Assembly (NCBI GenBank): GCA_043822385.1
Contig: JBDRBT010000006.1
Location: forward strand, 23,586 to 87,585
Direction of reading: 5' to 3'
Source of the DNA: Candidatus Micrarchaeota archaeon
Lineage (GTDB): Archaea > Micrarchaeota > Micrarchaeia > Norongarragalinales > Norongarragalinaceae
Length of the DNA: 64,000 nucleotides
Translations under genes and position numbers: made by a program
In this document: piece after piece, positions 8,791 to 42,302 of the stretch
Layout of the letters: each line of letters opens with the position of its first letter
How positions within the stretch are numbered: position 1 is the stretch's first letter
Notes under the pieces: model-generated
What the model was told of the DNA's origin: nothing
Seen by the model: the letters and a program-made list of their open reading frames with translations, nothing else
The model's database searches: none

Positions 8791-10236
8791 TTACTTGTTT
8801 TCGTTTTTCACGTGTTCTTGCAAGTGCCGAATGTCGATTTCTGGCGGGTGTTGTTCCCTGGTTTTCTTGAAGTAAATTAATGCTCCCACTAACGCGAGAA
8901 TGATTATTACTACGCCGATTATAGTCGCGTAATCAATTTGGTTTTCCTTCGGCTGTAAAATGAATGCTCTTTCAGCCAAGTCTCCAGCTATTGCTGCCAG
9001 TGTTTCCATGTTTACGCCTTCAGTGCTTCCTGAAGCTAGGAATTCTTCTTGTTTTTGCAGTTCGTTCTTTGCGTCTGCTAGTTCTTGTTGTAAAGCGAGA
9101 ACGCGTTCGTCGTTTGAACCGTATTTTTCTAGTGCTTCGTTAACGTTTTCTTCAGCTTCACTAACTTGTGCTTTAGCGCTAACGTAATCGTCTAGAATTT
9201 GTTCGTATTGAGTTAGTTTAAACCTCATTCCTTCCGACTTGTTGTAGAATTGTTCGGTATTGCTTTGGTTGTTTGAAGCGGTAGCGTTGAGTGAAGAGAA
9301 TTCAGTTTGCAATCCAGGCAAGTTTAATCCTGCGTTAGTATAGTTGCTAATGATGCTTTCGTATTGCCCGATTAATTCTTCTATTACGCTTAGTTGGTTA
9401 GCGTTTATTCTCCTGGTTTTAGCTTTTTCTTTTCTCGTTTCCGTTTGAGTTTTAATGCGATTCAAGATTTCGTCCGGACCAGAATATTTTGATTCGATTA
9501 AGTTTAACGTTGAGTCTATGTTAGTGTTAATGTCTTCAACTTTTTCGCATACTTGTTCTTCTCCGCTAATGTAGAACGCGTAAGGAAAGTTCGGCGATAA
9601 AATGTTTATGTACGCTTCGTATATTGAGGGGTAATCGCTTTTTATTCCGCTTAACCTGGTTTTTAATTCAGATAAAGCATTGAATACGCCTCTGAATTCT
9701 TTCTTTTCTTGAGACTGCAATAATTTTTGGTAAGACGTGTTTGCTCCAATTACTTTTTCTTGAAAGACTGGGCCTTTTTCTTTTAAGGTTAAGTACGCAG
9801 CGTTTTCTTTCGGGAAATCAATTTTTGCTAGTATAATGTATAGTTTGTACGTGTATTGGTTAATCGTCATGGAATAGAATTGGTTAGTTCCTGCGGCGCA
9901 CTCATTTATTTTACTCATCGTGTACAAGAAATTGTCTTTAAAATTACCTAAGTCTTGCGCAAACGAGGGTTCGTCGAAAACGTTTGTTAAATAAACATCT
10001 ATTATTGTTGTTAAACTAGCGTCTTCTTCCACTGGTTTAAAGGTTGAATCAAGTAACGCGACCTCCAAGCCGTTTGCTTTTATTACGTAGTAATTGCTTC
10101 CTTGGTATGAAACGTTAGAGAAAGAAGGAGTTTCTCCTGGTTCAGAGTAAAAACCTGCTTCTTGGTCTATGGTTAAACCAGCAACGAGGGAAGTGAGCAA
10201 AGCTAACAACAAAAATTTATTAACGTATGAATTCAT
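8791..10236 (-). CDS. secreted, membrane-anchored coiled-coil surface protein (hypothetical)
   Basis: N-terminal signal peptide (MNSYVNKFLLLALLTSLVAGL). Long heptad-like E/K/Q-rich stretches. C-terminal TM helix (IIGVVIIILALVGALIYF) followed by a basic tail. Confidence 0.6.
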   Translation of the reverse strand: MNSYVNKFLLLALLTSLVAGLTIDQEAGFYSEPGETPSFSNVSYQGSNYYVIKANGLEVALLDSTFKPVEEDASLTTIIDVYLTNVFDEPSFAQDLGNFKDNFLYTMSKINECAAGTNQFYSMTINQYTYKLYIILAKIDFPKENAAYLTLKEKGPVFQEKVIGANTSYQKLLQSQEKKEFRGVFNALSELKTRLSGIKSDYPSIYEAYINILSPNFPYAFYISGEEQVCEKVEDINTNIDSTLNLIESKYSGPDEILNRIKTQTETRKEKAKTRRINANQLSVIEELIGQYESIISNYTNAGLNLPGLQTEFSSLNATASNNQSNTEQFYNKSEGMRFKLTQYEQILDDYVSAKAQVSEAEENVNEALEKYGSNDERVLALQQELADAKNELQKQEEFLASGSTEGVNMETLAAIAGDLAERAFILQPKENQIDYATIIGVVIIILALVGALIYFKKTREQHPPEIDIRHLQEHVKNENK

Positions 10237-10271
10237 GAATAAATAACGAAACCTTGTTTAAAAAAGGAGTT

Positions 10272-10431
10272 CCCGCTGTAGCTCAACTTGGCAGAGCACC
10301 TGACTGTAGAAAACTCTAAAAAAGTATTTTTGGGTTTGCAGTATTTGCTTCAAAAACTCCGAGTTTTTGTTGAAGAGTGCTTTTTCAAGCGCGAAATCAG
10401 GGTGTTGCCAGTTCAAATCTGGCCAGCGGGA
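10272..10431 (+). tRNA. tRNA-Tyr (anticodon GTA) with an ~86-nt intron after position 37 (intron about 10310..10395)
   Basis: Acceptor CCCGCTG/CAGCGGG with C1:G72, D-arm GCTC-AACTTGGCA-GAGC, anticodon stem CCTGA ... TCAGG interrupted after CTGTAG, T-arm GCCAG-TTCAAAT-CTGGC, discriminator A. Intron boundaries are uncertain by 1-2 nt because of the A-run. Confidence 0.75.
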
Positions 10432-10463
10432 TTTTTTTCCTTTTTTTTGTAAAGTGATCTTTT

Positions 10464-32981: not shown

Positions 32982-33137
32982 TTTTTTTCTTTTCTCCTTT
33001 AACCTTGTGTTTCGTCTATTAAAGCAAAAGCGTTTTTGTGTGTGAAATAATACTTTTTTAACTGTGTAATAGAAGAAAAACTGGTTTTCTTTATTTTTTT
33101 AATATAATAATATGATTGAATCTCCTTTAAAAAGAGC

Positions 33138-33171
33138 GGTTTAAACCCGTTAAACAAAGATGGTTTAAACC
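33138..33171. promoter_or_regulatory. two copies of the 10-bp palindrome GGTTTAAACC (plus a TTAAAC half-site between them) in a divergent intergenic region; candidate operator
   Basis: GGTTTAAACC occurs at 33138..33147 and 33162..33171, 24 bp centre to centre. The site lies between the divergent DEAD-box helicase and acylphosphatase genes. Confidence 0.3.
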
Positions 33172-33284
33172 AGTTTTTTCATTTTTTTTACAGGATGATG
33201 ACGATTTTGAACAACCACTGACTTTGTGATGAGGCTGATAGCGTCTGACGCAAACTTTTACAGAAAAGTTTGAGAGTAATTAAA

Positions 33285-33563
33285 ATGGCGTTGAGACTGG
33301 TTTTAAGGGGGAGAGTGCATGGGGTTAATTGTAGGTCTTTCGTGAAGAGCATTGCGTTTAGAATGGATTTAAAGGGCTGGGTTAAGAATTTGAGTGACGG
33401 AAGCGTTGAAGTAGTTGTTGATGGCTCGCTTGAAGAATTAAATGAATTCAAGAAAAAAATTTTCATTAAGAATCCTGATTCTGATTTTGGTTTGAATGTA
33501 GAAGAAATAATTGAAGAAGACGTTGACGAGAAAGATTTAACGCCTTTTGAGATACGTTTTTAA
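33285..33563 (+). CDS. acyP: acylphosphatase
   Basis: LRGRVHGVNCRSFVKSIAFRMDLKGWVKNLSDGSVEVVVDG matches the acylphosphatase signature (V.G.VQGV.FR......A...GL.GWV.N..DGSVE). About 92 aa from the ATG at 33285. Confidence 0.8.
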   Translation: MALRLVLRGRVHGVNCRSFVKSIAFRMDLKGWVKNLSDGSVEVVVDGSLEELNEFKKKIFIKNPDSDFGLNVEEIIEEDVDEKDLTPFEIRF

Positions 33564-33592
33564 TTTGTTCATTGTTATTTTTGTGATTAGAA

Positions 33593-34291
33593 ATGCGTGA
33601 AGAACTAAAAAAGAGTATTGATGTTTGGTACGAAGACCTTCATTTCAATAAACATAAACAGGCTTTGTTTGAGCATCTTTCTAATTATGATTGGATGAGT
33701 ATTAGGGATAATGTTGAAAAAATCGGTTCGAAAGCTAAACGGGGTAAAACTAAGTATTCTATGGTGGAAGTTGGTTCTGCAGTTGTGAACCGCGAGAAAA
33801 CTCTTTTTCAACTTGCTATAGTGAATGAGTTTATTTCGCACGCCAGAGGATCGCCACCTGTTTTGGTAGCTGGAGAAAGCGAGCTAGCTAATAGAAACAA
33901 TGCGATTGAAGAATTGCAAAAAACTTGGTTGAAGGATACTGCTTTTCGTGAAGAAGTTTTAAAGTTTAAGGAAAACTTGGAGAAAGCTAGTCACGCGTAC
34001 AATAAGCAAGTTGTTGTAACTGCTCTTAGTAACGCGGTAATGCAGTTGCCTCATGGAGATGATTGGCATAAACTTTTTGGTCATGAAGAATGGAGAAAAC
34101 TAACGCGTGATGATGCGTTTAAGGAATTAAATGCTCTTGACAGTTATTTTTACTCTGAAGGTAACCGTTGGTTTCTTAAAGCCGGGAAAAACTGGTCTAA
34201 ACTTAATAAGCATCCTGTAGGGAACTTATTTACTCTTTCCCCTAAGGAATTAGTTGAAGAGTCTAGGCGAGCTAGATATCCGCGAGAGTAA
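33593..34291 (+). CDS. hypothetical protein
   Basis: 232-aa ORF with no recognisable motif. Confidence 0.5.
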   Translation: MREELKKSIDVWYEDLHFNKHKQALFEHLSNYDWMSIRDNVEKIGSKAKRGKTKYSMVEVGSAVVNREKTLFQLAIVNEFISHARGSPPVLVAGESELANRNNAIEELQKTWLKDTAFREEVLKFKENLEKASHAYNKQVVVTALSNAVMQLPHGDDWHKLFGHEEWRKLTRDDAFKELNALDSYFYSEGNRWFLKAGKNWSKLNKHPVGNLFTLSPKELVEESRRARYPRE

Positions 34292-34419
34292 TTAACAGGC
34301 ATGTTTTTAATGCAATAAATTCATTTATTTTTTATTGAGTTGAAGTGGAAAATGGTACGTGGTTTACTTCATAATCAAGCAATTCGCTTTAACTAGTGTA
34401 AACTCTTTTTTTCGTTTGT

Positions 34420-34491
34420 GGCTGGGATGGTCTAATGGTAGGACAAAAGCTTGTGGAGCTTTTAACGCGAGTTCGATTCTCGCTCCCGGCC
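34420..34491 (+). tRNA. tRNA-His (anticodon GTG) with an encoded G-1
   Basis: Acceptor GCTGGGA/TCCCGGC (one G.U pair), an extra 5' G pairing with discriminator C73 (the His identity element), D-arm GTCT-AATGGTA-GGAC, anticodon arm AAAGC-TTGTGGA-GCTTT, T-arm GCGAG-TTCGATT-CTCGC. Confidence 0.85.
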
Positions 34492-34564
34492 CTAAAGTGT
34501 TTTTAAGTGGGAAACCACAAATTCTTAAAAGTTTAAAATGTGAGGTGAGAAAAATTGAATAAAG

Positions 34565-34795
34565 GTGAATGTCTTCACAAAGAGTTTAGTCAAGAATCCT
34601 CGCATTATAGCGTGCAGGCTTGACTCTAAAGCGCGTCTAGTTTTACCTTTAGTTATACGTGAAAAGCTTAGTGTTAACAAGGGGGATATAGTTTCTTTTG
34701 AAGTTGAGTTTAGCGGCGCGTCAGTTTTTTTACGGTTGTGCAAGAACATGCAGAAGGGACTTAATAGGTCTTCTAGAAATGGGTGGGAAAAATGA
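34565..34795 (+). CDS. AbrB/SpoVT (MazE-like swapped-hairpin) family DNA-binding protein
   Basis: ARLVLPLVIREKLSVNKGDIVSFEVE matches the AbrB-type beta-barrel motif. GTG start. Its stop overlaps the HAL-family gene start (ATGA). Confidence 0.55.
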   Translation: MNVFTKSLVKNPRIIACRLDSKARLVLPLVIREKLSVNKGDIVSFEVEFSGASVFLRLCKNMQKGLNRSSRNGWEK

Positions 34796-36312
34796 TTGAG
34801 ATTAATGGAAATAATTTAACTATAGAAAAAATTGTTGCTGTAGCTAGAAATAAAGAGAACGTGTTTTTTTCTGAAGAAACGTTTTCAAGAGTTGAAGCAA
34901 ACTGGTTTGTTCTCCAGGAAATGATTTCGCGGGGGGACGTGCTTTACGGAGTTAATACCGGAATAGGCGCGTTTGGTAATGTTATTTTGTCTAAAAATGA
35001 GGGTGCAGAGCTCTCGAAAAGAATGATTAGAGCTCACGCTGCTGGTTGGGGTAATCCCTTACCTGAAGATGAAGCTAGGGCGTGCTTGTTGTTGCGTGCA
35101 AACGTGTTAGCTAAAGGGTATTCTGGAGTTAGGCCGGTTATTCTAGAATTGTTTGCTAGTTTACTCAACAAAAACGTTGTTCCAGTTATTTACGAGAAAG
35201 GTAGTGTTGGAACTAGCGGTGATTTAGCTCCCCTAGCTCAAATGGCATTAGTGTTGATTGGTGAAGGTGAAGCGTTTTTTGAAGGAGAAAGAATGCCTTC
35301 AAACGAAGCATTGGCGAGAACTGGTTTAAACCCGATTGTTTTGCAAGCTAGGGAAGGCTTGGCGTTGTTTAATGGTGCGCAAACAATGACTGCGATTGGT
35401 GCTTTAGCAGTTTATGATGCAGAACGATTGTTGAAAAACGCGCAAGTAGCTGCCGCGTTAACTATAGATTCTTTGAACGCGGTTACTGTTGCTTTCGACG
35501 AGCGGTTGCACGCGTTAAGGCCGTTTCCAGGTCAAATTAGTGTTGCTAGTAATATTCGCGGTTTAATTGAAAATAGTGAAGTTTTGAAGAAACAGAAAAG
35601 GGACACTCAAAGCGCTTACAGTCTTCGTTGCGTTCCACAGGTTTTGGGAGCGTCTAAGGACGCTATTGCTTACGCTAGAACTCAAGTGGAGATTGAAGCT
35701 AATTCTGTTGCCGACAACCCTATTTTCTTGACTGAAGAAAAAATTTGCTTGGCTGGCGGTAATTTTCACGGACAGCCGGTTGCTTATGCAATGGATTTGT
35801 TGGGTATAGCTGTTTCAGAAATAGGTGACATGGCGGAAAGGCGAGTGAATCGGTTGTTGAATCCTGCATTAAATGCGGGGTTGCCTGCTTTCTTGATTGC
35901 TGAAGGCGGCGGCTTGAATTCTGGTTTAATGATTGTTCAATACACTGCGGCAGCGTTGGTTAGTGAAAACAAGATTCTTGCTTCTCCAGCTAGTGTGGAT
36001 TCTATTCCTTGCAGTGCTGATCAGGAAGACCACGTTAGCATGGGTACTATTGCAGCTAGGAAAGCAAGGGAAATATTGCGTAATACTGAAGCGGTTGTTG
36101 GAATAGAGTTTCTTTGCGCTAGTCAGGCGTACGAATTTCAAAAACCAGCTAAATTAGGCGCGGGAACGAGCGTTGCTTTTGAGGAAGTAAGGAAAGTTTC
36201 TTTGAAGGTTGAGGAAGACCGTGTTTTTTACAAGGACGTTGAAGTACTGGCTAAACTAGTTCGTTCTGGCAAGATAGTTGAGAAAGTTGAAGAAAAAATT
36301 GTTTTGAAGTGA
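34792..36312 (+). CDS. aromatic amino acid ammonia-lyase family protein (HAL/PAL/aminomutase), MIO triad variant TSG
   Basis: YGVNTGIG, the MIO-forming segment GSVGTSGDLAPLAQM (Thr-Ser-Gly instead of the usual Ala-Ser-Gly), YSLRCVPQVLG and NPIF. The 507-aa length is typical of HAL. Confidence 0.85.
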   Translation: MIEINGNNLTIEKIVAVARNKENVFFSEETFSRVEANWFVLQEMISRGDVLYGVNTGIGAFGNVILSKNEGAELSKRMIRAHAAGWGNPLPEDEARACLLLRANVLAKGYSGVRPVILELFASLLNKNVVPVIYEKGSVGTSGDLAPLAQMALVLIGEGEAFFEGERMPSNEALARTGLNPIVLQAREGLALFNGAQTMTAIGALAVYDAERLLKNAQVAAALTIDSLNAVTVAFDERLHALRPFPGQISVASNIRGLIENSEVLKKQKRDTQSAYSLRCVPQVLGASKDAIAYARTQVEIEANSVADNPIFLTEEKICLAGGNFHGQPVAYAMDLLGIAVSEIGDMAERRVNRLLNPALNAGLPAFLIAEGGGLNSGLMIVQYTAAALVSENKILASPASVDSIPCSADQEDHVSMGTIAARKAREILRNTEAVVGIEFLCASQAYEFQKPAKLGAGTSVAFEEVRKVSLKVEEDRVFYKDVEVLAKLVRSGKIVEKVEEKIVLK

Positions 36313-36317
36313 GTTAA

Positions 36318-36914
36318 ATGAAGAATGCGGTTTTGTTGGTTATTGACGTGCAGAATGATTTTTGTTCTTCGCGCGGTATTCTAGCTAGGAATGGGTTTGA
36401 ATTAAAAAAAATACGCGAGAGTGTTTTTCGACTTGCGAAGCTAGTTAATGTTGCAAGACAAGCTAGAATTCCAATTGTATTCACTAAGTTAGTGTATGAC
36501 GAAAAAGTAATTCCCGAAAATAATTATAGAAGACTCAAGATTAAGGGCGTTGAGGGCTTGTGTGCACCAAACTCGTGGGGAGCTGAATTTTTTCTCATAA
36601 AACCAAGACGGAGTGAAAAAGTGTTTGTTAAAAATTATTATAGTGCGTTTTTCAATACTGGGTTGGACGCGTGGCTTTCCAAGAAAAAAATTAAAATTGT
36701 GATTATTACTGGAGTAACTACGCATGTTTGTCCTTTGCTTACTAGTGCTGACGCGTATTATCGGGGTTTTGAATTAGTTGCTGTTAGTGATTGTCTTGGT
36801 TCGTACGAAGCACAAGACTGGTCTTTAAAATATATGCAAAAACAATTTGCAGCTGCAGTAGTGAGTTCTTCTGTTCTTGCTAGTATTTTTCGAGAAAAAG
36901 GTGAATTGAAATGA
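36318..36914 (+). CDS. isochorismatase-family (cysteine) hydrolase
   Basis: N-terminal AVLLVIDVQNDF plus a conserved catalytic Cys region (ITGVTTHVCPLLTSADA) typical of the isochorismatase-like fold. Confidence 0.75.
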   Translation: MKNAVLLVIDVQNDFCSSRGILARNGFELKKIRESVFRLAKLVNVARQARIPIVFTKLVYDEKVIPENNYRRLKIKGVEGLCAPNSWGAEFFLIKPRRSEKVFVKNYYSAFFNTGLDAWLSKKKIKIVIITGVTTHVCPLLTSADAYYRGFELVAVSDCLGSYEAQDWSLKYMQKQFAAAVVSSSVLASIFREKGELK

Positions 36915-36935
36915 ATGCTATAGGAGTGGGTGAAC

Positions 36936-38084
36936 ATGCAAGCAAGCAAACTGTTGGCTTGGAGCTTGAAGAAAAACGGTATCCGAGACGTTTTCTTTTA
37001 CCCTGGGGCTTGCCTCCTGCCTATTGCATATTCGCTTGAAGACTGCGGAATAAGAAAAATAACGATGCGTAGTGATGCTTCCATTCCGCATGCGTGCAAC
37101 GGTTTTTTCCAAGCAAGCGGTAAAGTAGCTGTTGGTTTCGCTGGCGCGGGCCCTGCTTTTACTAATCTGCTTACGGGATTAGCTGCAGCAAAGGCAGATG
37201 GAATTCCAATGGTAATCTTTGTGGCTAATATGGAGAAAGCGGTTATTGGCGCGGGAGGTTTTCAGGACTTCGAAATGTGCAAGGCGGCGGTGCCTTTCGT
37301 GAAAAAAGCTTTTTTTGCGCGAGACGGATCGTCGTTTGCGTGTACTGTGCAGGCTGCGTTTGCAGCATGCACTAGCGGAAGGCCGGGACCGGTTTTAGTT
37401 GAAGTTCCGAGAGATGTTTGGGTAGAGGAAGTTGATGTTTTTGATTTGAAGTTTGAGCAAATGTTTTTTTCAGAAAAAATTCTTTCGCTTTCGCAATTGG
37501 AAAATTCTAGTGTTTCAAACGCATTGAGTTTGTGCACGGCTTTTTTTGATTGCGTGGTTACTGGAAATGGTTTGCACAAATACGTTGCAATGCAATCGTT
37601 TTGTGGTAAAAAGCTTATTTCAAGCGATTCTTTCGGTTGCATGGGGTTTTCGCTTCCTGCTGCGATAGGTGCGTGTATTGCGTTGAAGGAACAAGTGTTT
37701 CTCTTTGTTGGAGATGGTGATTTTAATATGTGTTCGAACGAGTTGGGCACTATTTTGCAATATGGCTTGCCGTTGAAAATAGTAGTATTCAATAATTCGT
37801 CTTTCGGAAGCATAAACCAGCTTAGGCGCGAGAACTGCAGACCTGTTGAAAAATTTGCAAACCCAGATTTTGAGCTTATTGCTAGAGCTTATGGATTGGA
37901 TTACCTAGACGCTGAGGAGAGCACGTTGCCTCAATGCATCAAACGTGCATGTTCTTCCCTCACGCCTTGTCTAATTGATTTTCGTTGTGAACTCAGCGTT
38001 CTTGAAGGAATTCCGTTGCTGCGAAAGTGGTTGAATGAAAACCGAATTAAACCACTTGCAACAATTAGCATTGCAGTAGGCTAA
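36936..38084 (+). CDS. thiamine-pyrophosphate-dependent enzyme lacking the central domain (sulfopyruvate/phosphonopyruvate-decarboxylase-like)
   Basis: A TPP_N pyrimidine-binding domain (FYPGACLLPIAYSL...GFAGAGPAFTNLLTGLAAAKADGIPMV) is joined directly to the TPP_C domain with the GDG...N motif (LFVGDGDFNMCSNELGTILQYGLPLKIVVFNNSSFG). About 380 aa total, similar to fused ComDE/Ppd-type decarboxylases. Confidence 0.65.
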   Translation: MQASKLLAWSLKKNGIRDVFFYPGACLLPIAYSLEDCGIRKITMRSDASIPHACNGFFQASGKVAVGFAGAGPAFTNLLTGLAAAKADGIPMVIFVANMEKAVIGAGGFQDFEMCKAAVPFVKKAFFARDGSSFACTVQAAFAACTSGRPGPVLVEVPRDVWVEEVDVFDLKFEQMFFSEKILSLSQLENSSVSNALSLCTAFFDCVVTGNGLHKYVAMQSFCGKKLISSDSFGCMGFSLPAAIGACIALKEQVFLFVGDGDFNMCSNELGTILQYGLPLKIVVFNNSSFGSINQLRRENCRPVEKFANPDFELIARAYGLDYLDAEESTLPQCIKRACSSLTPCLIDFRCELSVLEGIPLLRKWLNENRIKPLATISIAVG

Positions 38085-38132
38085 GAAGTGGGAGGCTTCT
38101 TTTTATTATTAGGAAAGTAGTAAGTGATTAGT

Positions 38133-39389
38133 ATGGATTTGACGCCGGTTAGGGGTTCTAGGGATTTTCTCGCGGGAGAAAAATTGTTGCGTGACGCTAC
38201 TGTAAGCAAGCTCAAGCGCGTATTCGAGTTGTACGGCTTCAACCCATTGGAAACACCTGCCTTGGAGTACTTGGAGGTATTGTCTTCAAAGTATGCTGGG
38301 GGAGAAGAAATAATCAAAGAAATTTATTCCCTGGAAGACCAAGGGAAAAGAAAATTGGGTTTGCGTTATGATTTGACTGTTCCGTTGTGTAGAGTGGTTG
38401 CTGGAAACAAGTTCGCTATGCCGTTCAAGCGTTACGCGATTGATTTGGTTTGGCGTGACGGCCCGATTAAGGCAGGTCGTTACAGGGAATTCGTGCAGTG
38501 CGATGTTGACGTGCTTGGTGTGGAGAGTGTTTGGGCTGAAGCTGAATTAATTTCCTTGCTTTACTCTGCGTTCAACGAGTTGGGTTTAAGGGTTGTAGTG
38601 AAAGTGAACTCGCGAAAACTGTTGAATTCTTTATTATCAAAAGCAGGAGTTAAGGAAGAAAAGTTTAATGAATTTATTTTGAGTTTAGACAAGCTGGAAA
38701 AAATTGGTGTTGACGGAGTCAAAAAGGAATTGAAAGAAAAAGGTTTTTCAGTAAAAATAATTAATTCTGCTTTGAGTTTATTGAAGGAAAAAGATTTAGT
38801 TGCATTCAAGAGTTTTGACGGAGCTAAAGACTTGCAAGAATTGTTTGATTACTCTCGAGTTTTTAGTTTGCCTGAAGGTGTTTTAGATTTTACTCCTTCT
38901 TTAGCAAGGGGTTTGAGTTATTACACTGGAATTGTTTTCGAGGCGTTCTTAGTGGATTCTGTAGTGAAGAGTAGTGTTGCTGCAGGCGGGCGTTATGATG
39001 ATTTAGTAGGTGCTTTTTCAGGCAAGGAAAAAATTCCTGCTGTTGGTTTTAGTTTTGGTTTAGACGTGATTTGCGAGGAATTAAAACAAAAGGCGCTTGA
39101 CAAAACTGTTGTTAGTGTTTTAGTTATTCCGTTCAAGAACACTGAGTTGGGAGTGCGTTTAGTGCAGACGTTGCGTGCTGCTGGAGTGAATAGTGTGGTT
39201 GACTTGGTTGGAAAGAATGTTTCAAAGAATTTGGATTACGCTAGCAAGGAAGGAATTCGTTTCGTTGCTTTTTATGGCGAGAAAGAGTTAGCTGAAGGCA
39301 AGGTAAAGCTTAGGGACATGAATTCTGGTGTTGAAGAGTTGTTTACTGAAGAAGGGGTTGTTGAAGCAATTAAAAAAGGCTTAAATTAG
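38133..39389 (+). CDS. hisS: histidyl-tRNA synthetase
   Basis: Class II motifs: PVRGSRDFLAGE, LRYDLTVPLCRVVAGN (motif 2 region), RYREFVQCDVDV, GGRYD. ATG at 38133 after a GTG-initiated extension. Confidence 0.9.
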   Translation: MDLTPVRGSRDFLAGEKLLRDATVSKLKRVFELYGFNPLETPALEYLEVLSSKYAGGEEIIKEIYSLEDQGKRKLGLRYDLTVPLCRVVAGNKFAMPFKRYAIDLVWRDGPIKAGRYREFVQCDVDVLGVESVWAEAELISLLYSAFNELGLRVVVKVNSRKLLNSLLSKAGVKEEKFNEFILSLDKLEKIGVDGVKKELKEKGFSVKIINSALSLLKEKDLVAFKSFDGAKDLQELFDYSRVFSLPEGVLDFTPSLARGLSYYTGIVFEAFLVDSVVKSSVAAGGRYDDLVGAFSGKEKIPAVGFSFGLDVICEELKQKALDKTVVSVLVIPFKNTELGVRLVQTLRAAGVNSVVDLVGKNVSKNLDYASKEGIRFVAFYGEKELAEGKVKLRDMNSGVEELFTEEGVVEAIKKGLN

Positions 39390-39437
39390 TTTTTCGTCCT
39401 TCTTTTTACAGCCTTATTTTTTAATGGGTTTTTGTTT

Positions 39438-42302
39438 ATGCGTGAGATTCCTGAATTAGAACTAGAAGTATTGAAGAAGTGGGAGAAAGACAATACTTTC
39501 CAAGAGAGCGTTACTGCAAGGAAGAACGAAAAGCAATTCGTGTTTATTGAGGGTCCGCCTACTGCTAACGGCATGCCTCATCCTGGCCACGTTTTAACTA
39601 GAGCGCACAAAGACTTGGTTTTGCGTTTCAAGACAATGCATGGTTTTTACGTGCCTCGCAGGGCTGGTTGGGATACTCACGGCTTGCCTGTTGAATTGGA
39701 AGTAGAAAAGAGTTTGGGTTTGAATGACAAGAAAGGAATCGAGAAGTACGGCGTAAAGAAATTCAACGAGAAGTGCAGGGAAAGCGTGTTCAAGTACGAG
39801 AATGCTTGGCGTGAAATGACGCGTAGAGTTGGTTTCTGGCTTGATTTGGATGATGCTTACGTTACGCTGACGCCTGATTACATTGAGAGTGTTTGGTGGA
39901 GTTTAAAACAAATTTGGGATAAAGAATTGCTTTACGAAGGACATAAGATAGTTCCTTTGTGTCCTCGTTGCGGTACTTCATTATCAAGTCACGAGGTTGG
40001 TTTGGGTTACAAGGATGTTACTGACGAGTCTGTTTACGTTAAATTCAAGTTAGAAGATGAAGACGCGTTCTTGCTTGCTTGGACTACTACTCCGTGGACT
40101 TTGTTTGGAGTAGTTGGCTTGGCTGTAAACAAAGCTTTTGTTTATTCTTTAGTAGAATGCGATGGAGAAAAGTATTACTTGGCGTCTTCTTTGGTTGAAG
40201 GAGTTTTGGGTTCAAAGTGCAAAGTATTAAAGAAAAACATTAAGGGTAGTGAGTTAGTTGGAAGAAAATTCAAACAATTATTCAAGGATATTCTTGTTAA
40301 AGAAAACGCGTTTTTTGTTATTCACGCTGATTACGTGTCTATTGATGACGGCACGGGTATTGTTACTCAAGCTGGTGCTTACGGTGAAGAGGATTACGAT
40401 AACTGCGTCAAGAACAGCTTGCCTATTGTTTCTTACGTGTTAGAGAATGGGTCTTTCGACGACCAAATTCCTTGGTTGAAGGGATTGTTCTTTACTGTTG
40501 CTAACAAGAAGACTTTCAAGAAACTAGAGGAAGAGCAGCTACTCGTGAAGAGCAAGCCGTTTTTGCATTCTTACCCGCATTGTTGGCGGTGCGATACTAA
40601 ATTGATTTACATTGCTCGCAAGAGTTGGTTCATTAAAATGAGTTCTTTACGCGAGAAACTCTTAAAGAATAATGACGAAATTTCTTGGTATCCTGAAACT
40701 ATTAAAACCGGGCGTTTTGGTTCTTTCTTGAGTGAAGTTAAAGACTGGGCTTTGAGTAGGAGTCGTTATTGGGGCACGCCGTTACCAATTTGGATTAGTG
40801 AGGATGGAGAAAAGATTTGCGTTGGTTCTTTCGACGAGTTGCGGGAATTGTCTGGAAAATCGTTAAAGAATTTTGATCCTCACAAGCCGTTTATTGATGA
40901 AATAATTATTAAAAAGAACGGGAAGGAATTCAAGCGGGTTCCTGAAGTTATTGATGCGTGGTATGATTCTGGTTCAGCTCCTTTTGCTCAATGGCATTAC
41001 CCGTTCGAAAACAAAGAAAAATTCAAGAGGAATTTTCCTGCTTCATTCATTGTTGAAGCAGTAGACCAAACTAGGGGCTGGTTTTACACTCTGCATGCTT
41101 TAGGAACCGTGTTGTTTGATTCTCCTGTTTTCGAGTCTTGCGTTGTTTTAGGCCATGTTCTAGATAAGAATGGTTTGAAAATGAGCAAGAGCAAGGGAAA
41201 TATGGTTTCGCCTGATGAAATGTTCGAGAAGTACGGTGCTGACGCGTTGCGTTGGAGCTTGTTTGTTGGAAACCCGCCTTGGGAACCAAGCAAGTTTTCT
41301 GAAGAATCTGTTGCAGAGAGCTTCAATCGCTTTATTTCAACTTACTATAACTCGTTGTATTACTACGATACTTACTCCGCGTCTTATGGTTTCAAGCCTA
41401 GTGGTGAGTTAGTTTTTGAAAACGCGTTGGATTACTGGATTGTTTCCAGGCTTAATTCAATTATTAATTGCGTTGAAAAAGAAATGAGTGTTTACAATGT
41501 TCACAAGGCAACTCGTGCTTTGCAAGACTTTTTGTTGAATGACTTGAGTAACTGGTTTATTCGCAGGAGCCGCGATAGGTTTACTGCAACTAAAAAGAAC
41601 AAAGAGTCAACTCAAGCTTTCGAGACTTTAGCGTATTGCTTGAAGGAACTAGCTTTAGTGACTGCGCCGTTCGTTCCTTTTGTTTCTGAAACGGTTTACT
41701 CTCGTTTCTCTAAGGAGAGCGTTCACTTGCAGGATTACCCTAAAGCAAAAACAAGGTTGATTGATTTAGAGTTAGAGACGGAAATGAGTGACTTGCGTTT
41801 GGTTGTAGAGCAAGGGAGAATGCTTCGTTCAGCTAACTCGTTAAAGCAGAAACAACCTTTAGCTAAAGCTGTTTTAGTTGGGTTGAGTTTCAGTGATTCA
41901 CTCTTGAGTGTTTTAGCTGGAGAATTAAACGTGAAAAAAATAGTTTTGAAAAAGACTGCAGGACTTGAATTAGAACAAGGATTCGTATTCAGCGAGTTGC
42001 GCGAAGGAGCTTTGCTTTACTTAGAAACTATTTTAACTCCTGAATTGCGTGCTGAGGGTTTAGCGAACGAGTTAACTCGCAATATTCAGGAAGCTAGAAA
42101 GAAATCAGGCAAGAAAATAAGTGATTCTGTTGCTATTGTTTTCATTGACGGCTTAAGCAAGGAAAACGAGGAGTTAGTCAAGCCGTTGCTTGAGGATTTA
42201 GCTGTGGAAGTGAGAGCAAAAAAAATTGTTTTCGGTAAAGGCAAGGGTTTTTCTTTAGACGCTAAAGTAAGTGGTACTACCGTGCGCATAACGCTTTGTT
42301 GA
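39438..42302 (+). CDS. ileS: isoleucyl-tRNA synthetase
   Basis: Class I HIGH-type motif PPTANGMPHPGHV, the IleRS-like GWDTHGLPVELEVEK, KMSKSKGN, and a CP1 editing-domain-sized insertion. ATG at 39438. Confidence 0.85.
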   Translation: MREIPELELEVLKKWEKDNTFQESVTARKNEKQFVFIEGPPTANGMPHPGHVLTRAHKDLVLRFKTMHGFYVPRRAGWDTHGLPVELEVEKSLGLNDKKGIEKYGVKKFNEKCRESVFKYENAWREMTRRVGFWLDLDDAYVTLTPDYIESVWWSLKQIWDKELLYEGHKIVPLCPRCGTSLSSHEVGLGYKDVTDESVYVKFKLEDEDAFLLAWTTTPWTLFGVVGLAVNKAFVYSLVECDGEKYYLASSLVEGVLGSKCKVLKKNIKGSELVGRKFKQLFKDILVKENAFFVIHADYVSIDDGTGIVTQAGAYGEEDYDNCVKNSLPIVSYVLENGSFDDQIPWLKGLFFTVANKKTFKKLEEEQLLVKSKPFLHSYPHCWRCDTKLIYIARKSWFIKMSSLREKLLKNNDEISWYPETIKTGRFGSFLSEVKDWALSRSRYWGTPLPIWISEDGEKICVGSFDELRELSGKSLKNFDPHKPFIDEIIIKKNGKEFKRVPEVIDAWYDSGSAPFAQWHYPFENKEKFKRNFPASFIVEAVDQTRGWFYTLHALGTVLFDSPVFESCVVLGHVLDKNGLKMSKSKGNMVSPDEMFEKYGADALRWSLFVGNPPWEPSKFSEESVAESFNRFISTYYNSLYYYDTYSASYGFKPSGELVFENALDYWIVSRLNSIINCVEKEMSVYNVHKATRALQDFLLNDLSNWFIRRSRDRFTATKKNKESTQAFETLAYCLKELALVTAPFVPFVSETVYSRFSKESVHLQDYPKAKTRLIDLELETEMSDLRLVVEQGRMLRSANSLKQKQPLAKAVLVGLSFSDSLLSVLAGELNVKKIVLKKTAGLELEQGFVFSELREGALLYLETILTPELRAEGLANELTRNIQEARKKSGKKISDSVAIVFIDGLSKENEELVKPLLEDLAVEVRAKKIVFGKGKGFSLDAKVSGTTVRITLC

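What the first reader, a model, noticed from the sequence alone, without database searches (positions are those of the whole stretch)
34565..38084. AbrB-regulator - HAL/PAL-family enzyme (TSG MIO variant) - isochorismatase - short TPP decarboxylase island
Four co-directional, near-overlapping genes form an unusual small-metabolite module for a streamlined archaeon. The ammonia-lyase family member has Thr-Ser-Gly instead of the canonical Ala-Ser-Gly MIO triad. TSG is known from some aminomutase-type members, so the enzyme may be an aminomutase or a lyase of different specificity rather than a HutH. No hutU or hutI follows. The other two genes are an isochorismatase-like hydrolase and a ~380-aa two-domain TPP enzyme of the sulfopyruvate/phosphonopyruvate-decarboxylase type. 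Together this looks like a horizontally acquired pathway fragment of unknown product.
Basis: partly seen in the sequence, partly recalled or inferred. Interest (0 to 1): 0.55.

Follow-up and report, generated by a model that had tools for sequence, protein, structure and literature searches.

The report
Histidine lyase operon beside tRNA-His/HisRS
A tiny symbiotic archaeon (Micrarchaeota) carries a normal histidine-degrading enzyme in one tight operon with a small regulator, an amide-cleaving enzyme and a very rare shortened vitamin-B1 enzyme. The operon sits between the histidine tRNA gene and the histidine-charging enzyme gene, and relatives share this layout, so it is not recently imported foreign DNA.

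Summary
The four genes are real. The reading of them needs correcting.

- **Lyase:** it is a genuine HutH-type histidine ammonia-lyase. It passes the NCBIfam hutH cut-off and fails both aminomutase models. All eight P. putida HAL active-site residues are present. Thr-Ser-Gly is the majority state in its clade (108 of 117 closest homologues).
- **ThDP enzyme:** it derives from the acetolactate-synthase lineage by loss of the middle domain. It is not sulfopyruvate- or phosphonopyruvate-decarboxylase-like. It belongs to a diverged and extremely rare family: about six representatives among 1.84 billion. Four of the five intact members are operon-coupled to this HAL.
- **No sign of recent transfer:** I found no att repeat and no integrase, and GC3 and codon usage are ordinary. 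Ten related loci share the core of an AbrB-like gene followed by HAL.
- **Missed context:** tRNA-His lies directly upstream and HisRS directly downstream. This linkage recurs in six related loci, in both gene orders, and independently in two Phycisphaerae.
- **Amidase slot:** the position after HAL holds either an isochorismatase-like or a nitrilase-like Cys-amidase. The HAL plus nitrilase-like pair also occurs in a CPR bacterium.
- **hutU/hutI:** neither appears in the window or in any related locus.

Best reading: a vertically kept histidine-overflow and ammonia-release operon. The chemistry of the amidase and ThDP enzyme is unresolved.

The parts
34421..34492 (+). tRNA-His (anticodon GTG), 72 nt upstream of the operon
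   Evidence: ARAGORN and Rfam tRNA at 64.1 bits. A tRNA-His sits at the same relative position in L001 and L003, beside HisRS in L083, and in the Phycisphaerae loci L015 and L029.
34565..34795 (+). Small AbrB/SpoVT-fold protein (76 aa), probable DNA-binding regulator, translationally coupled to the lyase
   Evidence: ORF. Weak Pfam MazE_antitoxin hit at 17.7 bits. An orthologue is present upstream of HAL in L001, L083, L084/85, L086, L087 and L004, and in degenerate form in L003 and L089. Conserved motifs are (A/C)(R/K)LDSKARLVLP and SSKNGWE. The profile hits SpoVT, AbrB, Abh and MraZ in the PDB. 4 of 8 members hit MazE_antitoxin and 4 of 8 hit MraZ. ATGA stop/start overlap at 34792-34795.
34792..36312 (+). 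Histidine ammonia-lyase (HutH), MIO triad Thr-Ser-Gly
   Evidence: Pfam Lyase_aromatic at 617 bits. NCBIfam hutH 623 > 539 and NF006871 640 > 524, with the aminomutase, PAL and TAL models below cut-off. Best PDB matches are HALs: 7tqr at 396 bits and P. putida HAL. All 8 HAL active-site residues are conserved.
36318..36914 (+). Isochorismatase-family cysteine hydrolase (amidase), RutB/BiuH/N-carbamoylsarcosine-amidase-like
   Evidence: Pfam PF00857 at 128 bits. Best NCBIfam hits are BiuH and RutB, both far below cut-off. PDB alignments place D10, K105 and C138 on the catalytic triad region. The orthogroup has only about 9 clusters at 49-56% identity, followed by a gap to <=40%. Orthologues follow HAL in L003, L006 and L083.
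36936..38084 (+). Two-domain ThDP enzyme (PYR + PP domains, no middle domain), ALS-derived rare family; the catalytic Glu position holds Asp
   Evidence: Pfam N and C domains only. ALS models match in two stretches, 218 vs a 538-bit cut-off. PDB: AHAS residues about 45-197 and about 430-590 aligned. Exhaustive search found only P0001-3, P0241-3, then a score gap. Family motifs and D/E at the catalytic position. AF2 model: pLDDT 83, pTM 0.86, disordered linker about residues 171-205; best fold matches are AHAS at TMq 0.8.
38087..38104 (+). Short hairpin (GAAG...CTTC) plus T5 tract; possible end of the four-gene transcript
   Evidence: Read directly from the sequence. Not tested.
38124..39389 (+). 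Histidyl-tRNA synthetase (HisRS), immediately downstream
   Evidence: Pfam tRNA-synt_His plus HGTP_anticodon. NCBIfam hisS 341.7 > 286.75. HisRS is adjacent to the HAL cluster in L003, L004, L006, L083 and L084, and in L015 and L029.

Best explanation
This is a lineage-specific, vertically maintained histidine-utilisation operon of a Micrarchaeota clade. It is not a foreign island.

**Shown**
- The lyase is an ordinary HutH. It converts L-histidine to urocanate plus NH3, using an MIO made from Thr-Ser-Gly.
- It is translationally coupled to a small AbrB/SpoVT-fold protein.
- It is followed, with gaps of 5 and 21 nt and no oligo-T tract at either junction, by a Cys-amidase with an intact Asp-Lys-Cys triad.
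- Next comes a ThDP enzyme with intact cofactor-binding motifs that has lost the ALS middle domain.
- The block is physically tied to tRNA-His and HisRS.

**Inferred**
- The organism is probably a histidine auxotroph that imports amino acids.
- HisRS (by recalled kinetics, a micromolar-Km enzyme) takes what translation needs. The millimolar-Km HAL acts as an overflow valve and turns surplus histidine into ammonia and urocanate.
- The amidase releases a second ammonia from an amide or ureido compound. The slot is filled by either of two unrelated Cys-amidase folds, which argues for the same kind of reaction.
- The ThDP enzyme decarboxylates or condenses a small 2-oxo acid. That would be either the de-amidated product of the amidase or pyruvate.
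- The AbrB-like protein autoregulates the operon from the 72-bp spacer after tRNA-His.
- With no HutU or HutI in view, urocanate is probably an end product. This step is the least certain.
For: **HutH identity.**. Essentiality of the Y/H/N/E residues and Km = 4.83 mM for a characterised HAL come from PMC11432326.

**Operon structure.** ATGA overlap, gaps of 5 and 21 nt, Shine-Dalgarno motifs, and a T5 tract only after the ThDP gene.

**Conservation across loci**

| Locus | Gene order |
|---|---|
| L001 | tRNA-His, AbrB, HAL, ThDP, second HAL |
| L003 | tRNA-His, HAL, ISO, HisRS |
| L006 | HAL, ISO, HisRS |
| L004 | HAL, CN_hydrolase, ThDP, HisRS |
| L083 | tRNA-His, HisRS, unknown 404-aa protein, HisC-like aminotransferase, AbrB, HAL, CysK-like, ISO |
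| L084 | HisRS, AbrB, HAL, CN_hydrolase, ThDP |

- Four-nt overlaps join HAL to the next gene in L001, L004 and L084.
- The HAL plus CN_hydrolase pair also occurs in a CPR Magasanikbacteria contig. Its hydrolase is about 40% identical to the archaeal ones.

**Family rarity**
- The ThDP and ISO families are tiny and HAL-linked.
- The carboxylate at the catalytic position (D or E), the GDG-X24-NN motif and other motifs are kept at about 40% identity across members.

**No transfer signals**
- No att repeat.
- GC3 is 0.40, 0.35, 0.28 and 0.40 for the four genes, against a window mean of 0.356 +/- 0.037. Codon-usage likelihoods are within about 2 SD.
- Neighbours are housekeeping genes.

**Background.** HutH is reported in 12% of Micrarchaeota, and near-complete His biosynthesis in only 9% (PMC8407392).
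Against: - Urocanate is neither an amide nor a 2-oxo acid. So the tight coupling of HAL to the amidase and ThDP enzyme is not explained by a simple 'three separate ammonia/CO2-releasing enzymes' picture.
- The substrates of the amidase and ThDP enzyme are unknown. All specific NCBIfam models are far below cut-off.
- The whole genome was not available, so hutU/hutI could exist elsewhere.
- Some clade members have AbrB plus HAL only (L086, L087, L089). The accessory genes are therefore dispensable.
- A T5 tract between the ThDP gene and HisRS suggests that HisRS may be transcribed separately.
- The HisRS Km is recalled from memory and was not looked up.
- Asp in place of the catalytic Glu could mean low ThDP activity or altered chemistry.
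Confidence: 0.45

Rival explanations
1. New urocanase-independent histidine pathway. HAL makes urocanate. The ThDP enzyme and the Cys-amidase then process urocanate or a derivative. One option is a MenD/PigD-style Stetter addition of a 2-oxo-acid-derived acyl anion to the acrylate, followed by C-N hydrolysis.
For: - Stop/start overlaps or gaps of <=21 nt join HAL, amidase and ThDP genes in four genomes at 40-73% protein identity.
- The ThDP family occurs almost only next to this HAL.
- The amidase slot is conserved through fold replacement, and the pair recurs in a CPR bacterium.
- HutU and HutI are absent from every locus of this clade. Only 1 of 41 TSG/VSG/CSG-type HAL loci has a HutI-like gene within 8 kb, against 30 of 30 SSG-type loci.
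Against: - No chemical precedent was tested here.
- Several clade members have HAL with only one accessory gene or none, which is unexpected for an obligatory pathway.
- L002 has the ThDP gene without HAL on a 3-kb contig.
- Loss of the ALS middle domain removes residues that bind the acceptor substrate in AHAS (from established knowledge of AHAS).
Confidence: 0.2
2. Neighbours without a shared pathway. HAL is an orphan ammonia-lyase. The amidase, ThDP enzyme, HisRS and tRNA-His are simply packed beside it in a small genome, and the synteny is inherited.
For: - DPANN genomes are compact.
- The cargo between HAL and the next conserved gene varies: ISO, CN_hydrolase, ThDP, CysK-like, or a second HAL.
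- Some loci have HAL alone.
Against: - HisRS lies on either side of HAL in different genomes, so proximity survived rearrangement.
- An independent tRNA-His, HisRS, HAL arrangement exists in two Phycisphaerae.
- The HAL plus CN_hydrolase pair is shared between archaea and a CPR bacterium.
- Four-nt overlaps imply co-translation.
Confidence: 0.17
3. One reading: a recently horizontally acquired small-metabolite module. Its MIO enzyme is an aminomutase or a lyase of non-histidine specificity, and its ThDP enzyme is a sulfopyruvate/phosphonopyruvate-type decarboxylase.
For: - The TSG triad is known from at least one aminomutase (AdmH, recalled from memory). AdmH (3unv) is among the PDB hits at 288 bits.
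- The location next to a tRNA gene is a classic island site.
- Total GC of the HAL and ThDP genes is the highest in the window.
Against: - The hutH equivalog is passed and the aminomutase models are failed.
- The His-specific H83 and E414 are present, along with the six other HAL active-site residues.
- TSG occurs in 108 of 117 nearest HALs.
- The high GC comes from codon positions 1 and 2; GC3 is ordinary.
- There is no att repeat and no integrase.
- The ThDP enzyme is closest to AHAS by sequence and fold.
- The arrangement is conserved in relatives.
Confidence: 0.06
4. Histidine-supply module. The amidase liberates histidine from an N-acyl- or N-carbamoyl-histidine or an amide, or it pulls a glutamine-dependent transamination of imidazole-pyruvate in the manner of an omega-amidase. 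This feeds HisRS, and HAL only trims the excess.
For: - The module is adjacent to tRNA-His and HisRS.
- A HisC-like aminotransferase sits in L083.
- The CN_hydrolases resemble Nit/omega-amidase and N-carbamoyl amidases at sub-threshold level.
Against: - It gives no role for the ThDP enzyme.
- Wild-type HAL does not accept histidinamide (PMC11432326).
- The HisC-like gene is seen in only one locus.
- It is speculative.
Confidence: 0.1

Closest known systems
Histidine ammonia-lyase HutH (NCBIfam TIGR01225; PDB 7tqr, 1b8f/1gkm)
   Same: Full-length match above the curated cut-off. MIO Ser-Gly core and all eight catalytic and substrate-binding residues are present. About 47% similarity-level match to solved HALs.
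   Different: The first MIO residue is Thr rather than Ala. The 'switch' dyad is Ala-His instead of Ser-His; 103 of 127 TSG-type sequences share this. The gene is not next to hutU or hutI.
Canonical hutU-hutH-hutI clusters (seen here in Thor-/Promethearchaeota and some Bacillota loci)
   Same: The same first enzyme, about 50% identical.
   Different: Those HALs carry SSG or ASG triads and are flanked by urocanase and imidazolonepropionase. The window clade has neither. Instead it has AbrB, an amidase, a ThDP enzyme, HisRS and tRNA-His.
Acetohydroxyacid/acetolactate synthase large subunit (IlvB; PDB 1jsc, 1ybh)
   Same: The best sequence and fold match for both the PYR and PP domains. GDG-X24-NN Mg/ThDP motif, FQ(D/E) motif and the same domain order.
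   Different: - The entire middle (FAD/regulatory) domain, about 170-180 aa, is missing and replaced by a disordered linker of about 35 residues.
- The catalytic Glu is Asp in half of the members.
- ALS motifs VGQHQMW and GGLGTMG are replaced by GNGLHKY and D.FGCMGF.
- It scores 218 bits against a 538-bit cut-off.
Sulfopyruvate decarboxylase (ComDE) / phosphonopyruvate decarboxylase
   Same: Two-domain PYR-PP architecture of about 380 aa without a middle domain (from established knowledge of these families).
   Different: Not among the top 25 NCBIfam, top 60 PDB-sequence or top 50 fold matches. The similarity is architectural and convergent. No PEP mutase or coenzyme-M context was seen among the neighbours scanned.
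RutB / biuret hydrolase / N-carbamoylsarcosine amidase (isochorismatase-like cysteine hydrolases)
   Same: The fold, and D-K-C triad positions aligned. These are the best sub-threshold hits.
   Different: Only 35-40% identical and far below every equivalog cut-off. It forms its own small HAL-linked orthogroup. The substrate is unknown.
AbrB / SpoVT N-terminal swapped-hairpin DNA-binding domain
   Same: The profile of eight orthologues aligns to SpoVT and AbrB residues about 7-45, including the (D)xxGR(V/I)V(I/L)P signature.
   Different: Below Pfam gathering scores. It has a family-specific C-terminal SSKNGWE tail that overlaps the HAL ribosome-binding site. No toxin partner is present.

Membership tests
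HutH histidine ammonia-lyase (TIGR01225 / NF006871) | Whole-protein score above the curated equivalog cut-off | tested here: met
   623.0 vs 539.15 and 639.7 vs 524.
HutH histidine ammonia-lyase | MIO-forming X-Ser-Gly tripeptide | tested here: met
   Thr141-Ser142-Gly143. Ser-Gly is invariant in 195 homologues, while X is A, S, T, C or V.
HutH histidine ammonia-lyase | His-specific and catalytic residues (P. putida numbering Y53, H83, N195, Q277, Y280, R283, F329, E414) | tested here: met
   All eight are present in the window protein and invariant across triad classes, apart from 2 Cys at H83 (ASG class) and 1 Trp at F329 (TSG class) among 195 sequences. Their essentiality is shown in PMC11432326.
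HutH histidine ammonia-lyase | Catalytic conversion of L-His to urocanate | not testable with these tools
   Needs an enzyme assay (A277).
Complete Hut pathway (hutH-hutU-hutI-hutG/F) | Urocanase and imidazolonepropionase present | tested here: not met
   No tblastn hit (E<1) in the window and none (E<1e-3) in 10 related loci. The rest of the genome was not available.
MIO aminomutases (Tyr 2,3-aminomutase TIGR03832; Phe aminomutase TIGR04475) | Score above the curated cut-off | tested here: not met
   441.6 vs 501 and 412.9 vs 800.
Acetolactate synthase large subunit (TIGR00118) | Three-domain architecture with TPP_enzyme_M (PF00205) and a score above cut-off | tested here: not met
   No PF00205 hit. 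217.9 vs 538.35 bits, matched in two separate stretches. The deletion is visible in the alignment.
ThDP-dependent enzyme (general) | GDG-X24-27-NN Mg2+/diphosphate motif in the PP domain | tested here: met
   GDGDFNMCSNELGTILQYGLPLKIVVFNN. G261, D262 and N289 are invariant in a 43-sequence alignment.
ThDP-dependent enzyme (general) | Conserved catalytic Glu in the PYR domain that activates the cofactor | tested here: inconclusive
   The position holds Asp in the window protein, P0003 and P0241, and Glu in P0002, P0242 and P0245. A carboxylate is therefore conserved, but the Asp is atypical.
Sulfopyruvate / phosphonopyruvate decarboxylase | Sequence membership (specific family models) rather than architecture alone | tested here: not met
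   Absent from the 25 best of 52 NCBIfam hits, all of which are ALS-like. Absent from the PDB sequence hits and the top 50 fold hits.
Isochorismatase-like cysteine hydrolase (PF00857) | Domain score above gathering threshold and an Asp-Lys-Cys triad | tested here: met
   128.1 vs 27 bits. D10 (VIDVQNDF), K105 and C138 (TTHVC) align with the catalytic region of N-carbamoylsarcosine amidase and related amidases. The triad was assigned by reading the alignment.
Nicotinamidase PncA | Score above cut-off (and a metal-binding D/H/H site) | tested here: not met
   41.3 vs 174 bits, and only the C-terminal third matched. No DWHP-type motif was seen on reading the sequence.
AbrB/SpoVT/MazE swapped-hairpin regulators | Recognisable N-terminal domain | tested here: inconclusive
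   Single sequence 17.7 bits vs 24.7. The family profile hits SpoVT at E = 4e-4 and AbrB at 0.03. 4 of 8 members hit PF04014 and 4 of 8 hit PF02381.
tRNA-targeted integrative genomic island | Direct repeat of the tRNA 3' end at the far border, an integrase, and atypical composition | tested here: not met
   No such repeat in 33000-40000. Neighbours are acylphosphatase, an unknown 232-aa protein, HisRS and IleRS. GC3 and codon usage are within range.

The most novel reading that the evidence does not exclude
HAL, a Cys-amidase and the middle-domain-less ThDP enzyme together form a previously unrecognised, urocanase-independent route for histidine/urocanate metabolism in ultra-small archaea. The HAL-amidase core would be shared with CPR bacteria. 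The route would be genomically wired to tRNA-His and HisRS so that histidine charging and histidine disposal are co-ordinated.
Probability: 0.2. Interest if true: 0.75.

Novelty: new variant of a known kind. Interest (0 to 1): 0.5.

Why it matters
**Orphan HALs.**
- HutH without HutU or HutI is widespread in DPANN, CPR, Thermoplasmata and Planctomycetes. In this sample 40 of 41 non-SSG/ASG loci had no hut neighbour.
- Its role in such organisms is not explained.
- This operon gives concrete, cloneable partners to test: two interchangeable amidases and a ThDP enzyme.

**ThDP enzyme.** This family is a natural example of an ALS-lineage enzyme working, if it does work, without the middle domain and often with Asp instead of the near-universal catalytic Glu. 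That is relevant to ThDP enzymology and enzyme minimisation.

**Linkage to translation genes.** The recurrent juxtaposition of a catabolic lyase with the cognate tRNA and aminoacyl-tRNA synthetase is an unusual pattern. It may reflect how amino-acid-scavenging symbionts balance supply and disposal.

Tried and rejected
1. **Exact-sequence look-ups** of the window HAL (both starts) and of P0001 found nothing. The source genome could not be retrieved, so its hutU/hutI status is unknown.
2. **A corrected assumption.** I first assumed that TSG-type HALs sit in hutUHI clusters. This was wrong: the hut-linked homologues are SSG or ASG. I corrected it after tabulating triad against context. HutH identity now rests on the HMM cut-offs and the invariant active-site residues.
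3. **Integrative-island test.** No att repeat, no integrase and ordinary GC3. Rejected.
4. **Nicotinamidase reading of the ISO gene.** Rejected (no metal-binding motif).
5. **Histidinamide/urocanamide link between HAL and the amidase.** Wild-type HAL does not take histidinamide. Only R280K and F325Y mutants do, and the window HAL keeps R and F. Rejected.
6. **Ergothionase reading.** The match is weaker (209 bits), and the window protein keeps the MIO triad and HAL residues. Rejected.
7. **Metagenome scan for more short-ThDP loci.** It returned only two ordinary full-length ALS-like genes.
8. **Literature searches.** Searches for TSG/SSG triads in HAL, HAL-nitrilase clusters, and ThDP enzymes lacking the TH3 domain found nothing directly relevant.
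9. **P0360.** This 396-aa ALS with a clean middle-domain deletion keeps all ALS motifs and is unrelated to the family.

Full report
**Observation**

The window holds four co-directional ORFs at the stated place.

| Gene | Coordinates | Length |
|---|---|---|
| Small AbrB-like protein | 34565-34795 | 76 aa |
| Lyase | 34783/34792-36312 | 509/506 aa |
| Isochorismatase-like protein | 36318-36914 | 198 aa |
| ThDP enzyme | 36930/36936-38084 | 384/382 aa |

- Pfam gives Lyase_aromatic (E = 2.4e-185), Isochorismatase (5e-37), and TPP_enzyme_N plus TPP_enzyme_C with no TPP_enzyme_M. It gives a sub-threshold MazE/AbrB hit for the small protein.
- The lyase start is the ATG at 34792, which overlaps the small gene's stop as ATGA.
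- The next two junctions are 5 and 21 nt. Each start has a GGTG/GGAG-type ribosome-binding motif and neither junction holds an oligo-T tract. A small hairpin plus T5 follows the ThDP gene.
- Proteins 100% identical to three of the genes are named by NCBI as coming from a Candidatus Micrarchaeota MAG, on a 119-kb contig.
There is also no hutU or hutI in the 64-kb window.

- A tRNA-His (GTG) gene lies 72 nt upstream, at 34421-34492.
- The gene 39 nt downstream is histidyl-tRNA synthetase (Pfam tRNA-synt_His plus anticodon domain; NCBIfam hisS 341.7 vs 286.75). IleRS follows it.
- The "island" is thus sandwiched between the two translation components specific for histidine.

**The lyase is a genuine HutH**

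- It passes both NCBIfam HAL models (623 vs 539; 640 vs 524). It fails the Tyr aminomutase (442 vs 501), Phe aminomutase (413 vs 800), PAL and TAL models.
- Its best solved relatives are HALs: 7tqr at 396 bits and P. putida HAL at 356 bits.
- All eight residues that define the P. putida HAL active site are present: Y53, H83, N195, Q277, Y280, R283, F329 and E414.
- In an alignment of 195 homologues these residues are essentially invariant, whatever the first residue of the triad.
- Mutating the equivalent Y, H, N and E residues abolishes activity in a characterised HAL (PMC11432326).
- TSG is not a rarity. 108 of the 117 closest homologues with the region present have it, five have CSG and four have ASG.
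- Locus L001 carries two sister paralogues, one TSG and one ASG.
- The only active-site-adjacent difference is Ala-His instead of Ser-His at the "switch" dyad. Most TSG-type sequences share it.

A correction to my own first reading is needed. The homologues that sit in hutU-HAL-hutI clusters are Asgard archaea and some Bacillota (Pfam-confirmed), and they carry SSG or ASG. They do not carry TSG.

| First triad residue class | Loci with a hut neighbour | Detail |
|---|---|---|
| SSG | 30 of 30 | hutU and/or hutI adjacent |
| ASG | 4 of 8 | |
| TSG/VSG/CSG | 1 of 41 | a HutI-like gene within 8 kb |

The window enzyme therefore belongs to a large clade of "orphan" HALs (DPANN, CPR, Thermoplasmata, Planctomycetes). 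Its chemistry looks standard, but its pathway context is not the classical one.

**The ThDP enzyme**

- By sequence it is closest to the acetolactate/acetohydroxyacid synthase large subunit. Two separate stretches correspond to the PYR and PP domains, aligned to yeast AHAS residues about 45-197 and about 430-590.
- The whole middle domain is missing.
- An AlphaFold2 model (pLDDT 83, pTM 0.86) shows two well-formed domains joined by a disordered linker at about residues 171-205. Its best PDB fold matches are AHAS structures, at TM 0.8 on the query. The alignment used for the model was ALS-rich, so this result was expected.
- Sulfopyruvate and phosphonopyruvate decarboxylases do not appear among the best hits.
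- It is not an ALS fragment or pseudogene.
  - An exhaustive HMMER search of 1.84 billion representatives found a family of only six: the window protein, P0002, P0003, P0241, P0242 and an N-truncated P0243. A score gap then separates them from ordinary three-domain ALS-like proteins.
  - A pattern scan of 241 million metagenome records added none.
  - Members are about 40% identical. They keep the GDG-X24-NN cofactor motif and share family-specific motifs (S[D/E]AS.PHAC.GFFQA.GK, GNGLHKY, D.FGCMGF) that replace the ALS ones.
  - The position of the catalytic Glu holds Asp in three members, including the window, and Glu in three others. A carboxylate is conserved, but Asp is highly unusual for ThDP enzymes. 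That unusualness is from established knowledge and was not tested here.

**The hydrolase**

- It is an isochorismatase-family protein whose D10, K105 and C138 align with the catalytic region of N-carbamoylsarcosine amidase and related amidases.
- Its best, far sub-threshold, models are biuret hydrolase and RutB. It is not a nicotinamidase.
- Its orthogroup is tiny: about nine clusters at 49-56% identity, then a drop to <=40%.

**The small protein**

- Orthologues with the motif (A/C)(R/K)LDSKARLVLP and a C-terminal SSKNGWE precede the HAL gene in every locus of the clade. They are degenerate in L003 and L089.
- Their stops usually overlap the HAL start by 4 nt.
- The family profile hits the SpoVT and AbrB N-terminal DNA-binding domains.

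**Comparative context**

Related loci were recovered through the ThDP protein and the HAL. They were annotated with tblastn, ARAGORN, Pfam and NCBIfam.

| Locus | HAL identity to window | Gene order |
|---|---|---|
| window | - | tRNA-His, AbrB, HAL, ISO, ThDP, HisRS |
| L003 | 80% | tRNA-His, (AbrB-like), HAL, ISO, HisRS |
| L006 | 81% | HAL, ISO, HisRS |
| L001 | 73% | tRNA-His, AbrB, HAL, ThDP, second HAL (contig end) |
| L083 | 75% | tRNA-His, HisRS, unknown, HisC-like aminotransferase, AbrB, HAL, CysK/SbnA-like, ISO, tRNA-Thr |
| L084/85 | 64% | HisRS, AbrB, HAL, CN_hydrolase, ThDP, tRNA-Thr |
| L004 | 60% | (AbrB-like), HAL, CN_hydrolase, ThDP, HisRS |
| L086, L087/88, L089 | 70-77% | AbrB-like, HAL only |

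Four points follow.

1. AbrB plus HAL is the invariant core.
2. HisRS and/or tRNA-His is in or beside the cluster in seven of ten loci. HisRS lies on either side of HAL, so the proximity survived rearrangement. Two Phycisphaerae bacteria independently show tRNA-His, HisRS, HAL.
3. The position after HAL is filled by one of two unrelated Cys-amidase folds. The HAL plus CN_hydrolase pair is also present, 5 nt apart, in a CPR Magasanikbacteria contig. Its hydrolase is about 40% identical to the archaeal ones.
4. Four of the five intact short-ThDP genes with known context lie in these HAL operons, joined by 4-nt overlaps or gaps of 1-21 nt. The fifth, L002, is on a 3-kb contig next to an SDR.

**Horizontal transfer**

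- The 3' end of tRNA-His is not repeated anywhere in 33000-40000.
- No integrase is among the neighbours.
- The slightly raised total GC of the HAL and ThDP genes comes from codon positions 1 and 2.
- GC3 is 0.345 for HAL and 0.400 for the ThDP gene, against a window mean of 0.356 +/- 0.037. Synonymous-codon likelihoods are unremarkable.
- Together with the conserved synteny, this argues against recent acquisition.
- Ancient exchange between CPR and DPANN is compatible with the HAL tree. That tree is a simple NJ tree and should not be over-read.

**Mechanism**

*Shown:* the identities, the intact catalytic and cofactor motifs, the operon architecture and the conservation.

*Inferred:*
- Most Micrarchaeota lack histidine biosynthesis, and 12% carry HutH (PMC8407392).
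- A characterised HAL has Km = 4.8 mM for histidine (PMC11432326). HisRS enzymes work at micromolar histidine (recalled from memory).
- Placing HAL beside HisRS and tRNA-His therefore fits an overflow arrangement. Translation is served first, and surplus imported histidine is deaminated to urocanate plus ammonia.
- The amidase would release further ammonia from an amide or ureido compound.
- The ThDP enzyme would decarboxylate or ligate a small 2-oxo acid, possibly the de-amidated product. This fits the constant order of amidase followed by ThDP gene.
- The AbrB-like protein would autoregulate the operon.

I give this reading 0.45. It does not explain why HAL is so tightly coupled to enzymes whose expected substrates are not urocanate.

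The main rival, at 0.2, is that the three enzymes form a new urocanase-independent route.

**Comparison with the known, and novelty**

- The lyase is already known as a family.
- The operon is a new variant of a histidine-utilisation cluster.
- The ThDP protein is a new, very small subfamily of the ALS lineage with a two-domain architecture convergent on ComDE/Ppd.
- I found no paper describing the HAL-amidase pairing, the HisRS/tRNA-His linkage or this ThDP family.

**Verdict**

- Interest is moderate (0.5). The lyase itself is ordinary. The conserved operon partners, the rare minimal ThDP enzyme and the wiring to tRNA-His/HisRS are unexpected and directly testable.

Noticed in passing
L003-L082 (HAL loci from genome contigs): The first residue of the MIO triad tracks genomic context. 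SSG HALs are next to hutU and/or hutI in 30 of 30 loci (Asgard archaea). ASG HALs are in 4 of 8. TSG, VSG and CSG HALs are in only 1 of 41. All active-site residues are identical throughout, so this could be phylogenetic confounding or a real split between pathway HALs and orphan HALs.
   Followed up: partly
L015:3294-6752 and L029:5969-9563: Two Phycisphaerae (Planctomycetota) contigs carry tRNA-His(GTG), HisRS, then HAL(TSG) in a row. This is an arrangement independent of the archaeal one.
   Followed up: partly
L001:1085-2632 and L001:3821-5285: One Micrarchaeota contig has two sister HAL paralogues flanking the short ThDP gene. One has TSG and the other ASG, which shows that the triad's first residue flips between recent duplicates.
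   Followed up: partly
L095:6001-8311 (also L096): In a CPR Magasanikbacteria contig, HAL (56% identical to the window's) is followed 5 nt later by a CN_hydrolase about 40% identical to those after HAL in the archaeal loci L004 and L084.
   Followed up: partly
L083:6606-7595 and 9570-10451: In one related locus the HAL operon is flanked by a HisC-like aminotransferase (196 bits vs a 277 cut-off) and a CysK/SbnA-like PLP enzyme instead of the ThDP enzyme.
   Followed up: no
P0360 (396 aa) and P0243 (335 aa; L090-L092): P0360 is an otherwise typical ALS with a clean deletion of the middle domain and is unrelated to the short family. P0243 is an N-terminally truncated member of the short family. 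It lies next to an EamA transporter on four contigs and may be a decaying copy.
   Followed up: no
window:10272-10431: Rfam reports a tRNA match spanning 160 nt (49.6 bits) that ARAGORN did not call. It is probably an intron-containing archaeal tRNA.
   Followed up: no
window:42593-44400 (- strand): Transketolase is encoded as two separate genes, an N-terminal ThDP-binding half and a pyrimidine-binding plus C-terminal half. This split is common in archaea.
   Followed up: no
window:33593-34291: A 232-aa ORF directly upstream of tRNA-His has no Pfam or meaningful NCBIfam match and no counterpart in the related loci.
   Followed up: partly
window:34770-34795 and the equivalent sites in L083, L084, L086 and L087: The conserved C-terminal SSKNGWE of the AbrB-like protein is encoded by ...AAT GGG TGG GAA... 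This doubles as the GGTGG-type ribosome-binding site of the overlapping HAL start, so its conservation may be at the nucleotide level.
   Followed up: no
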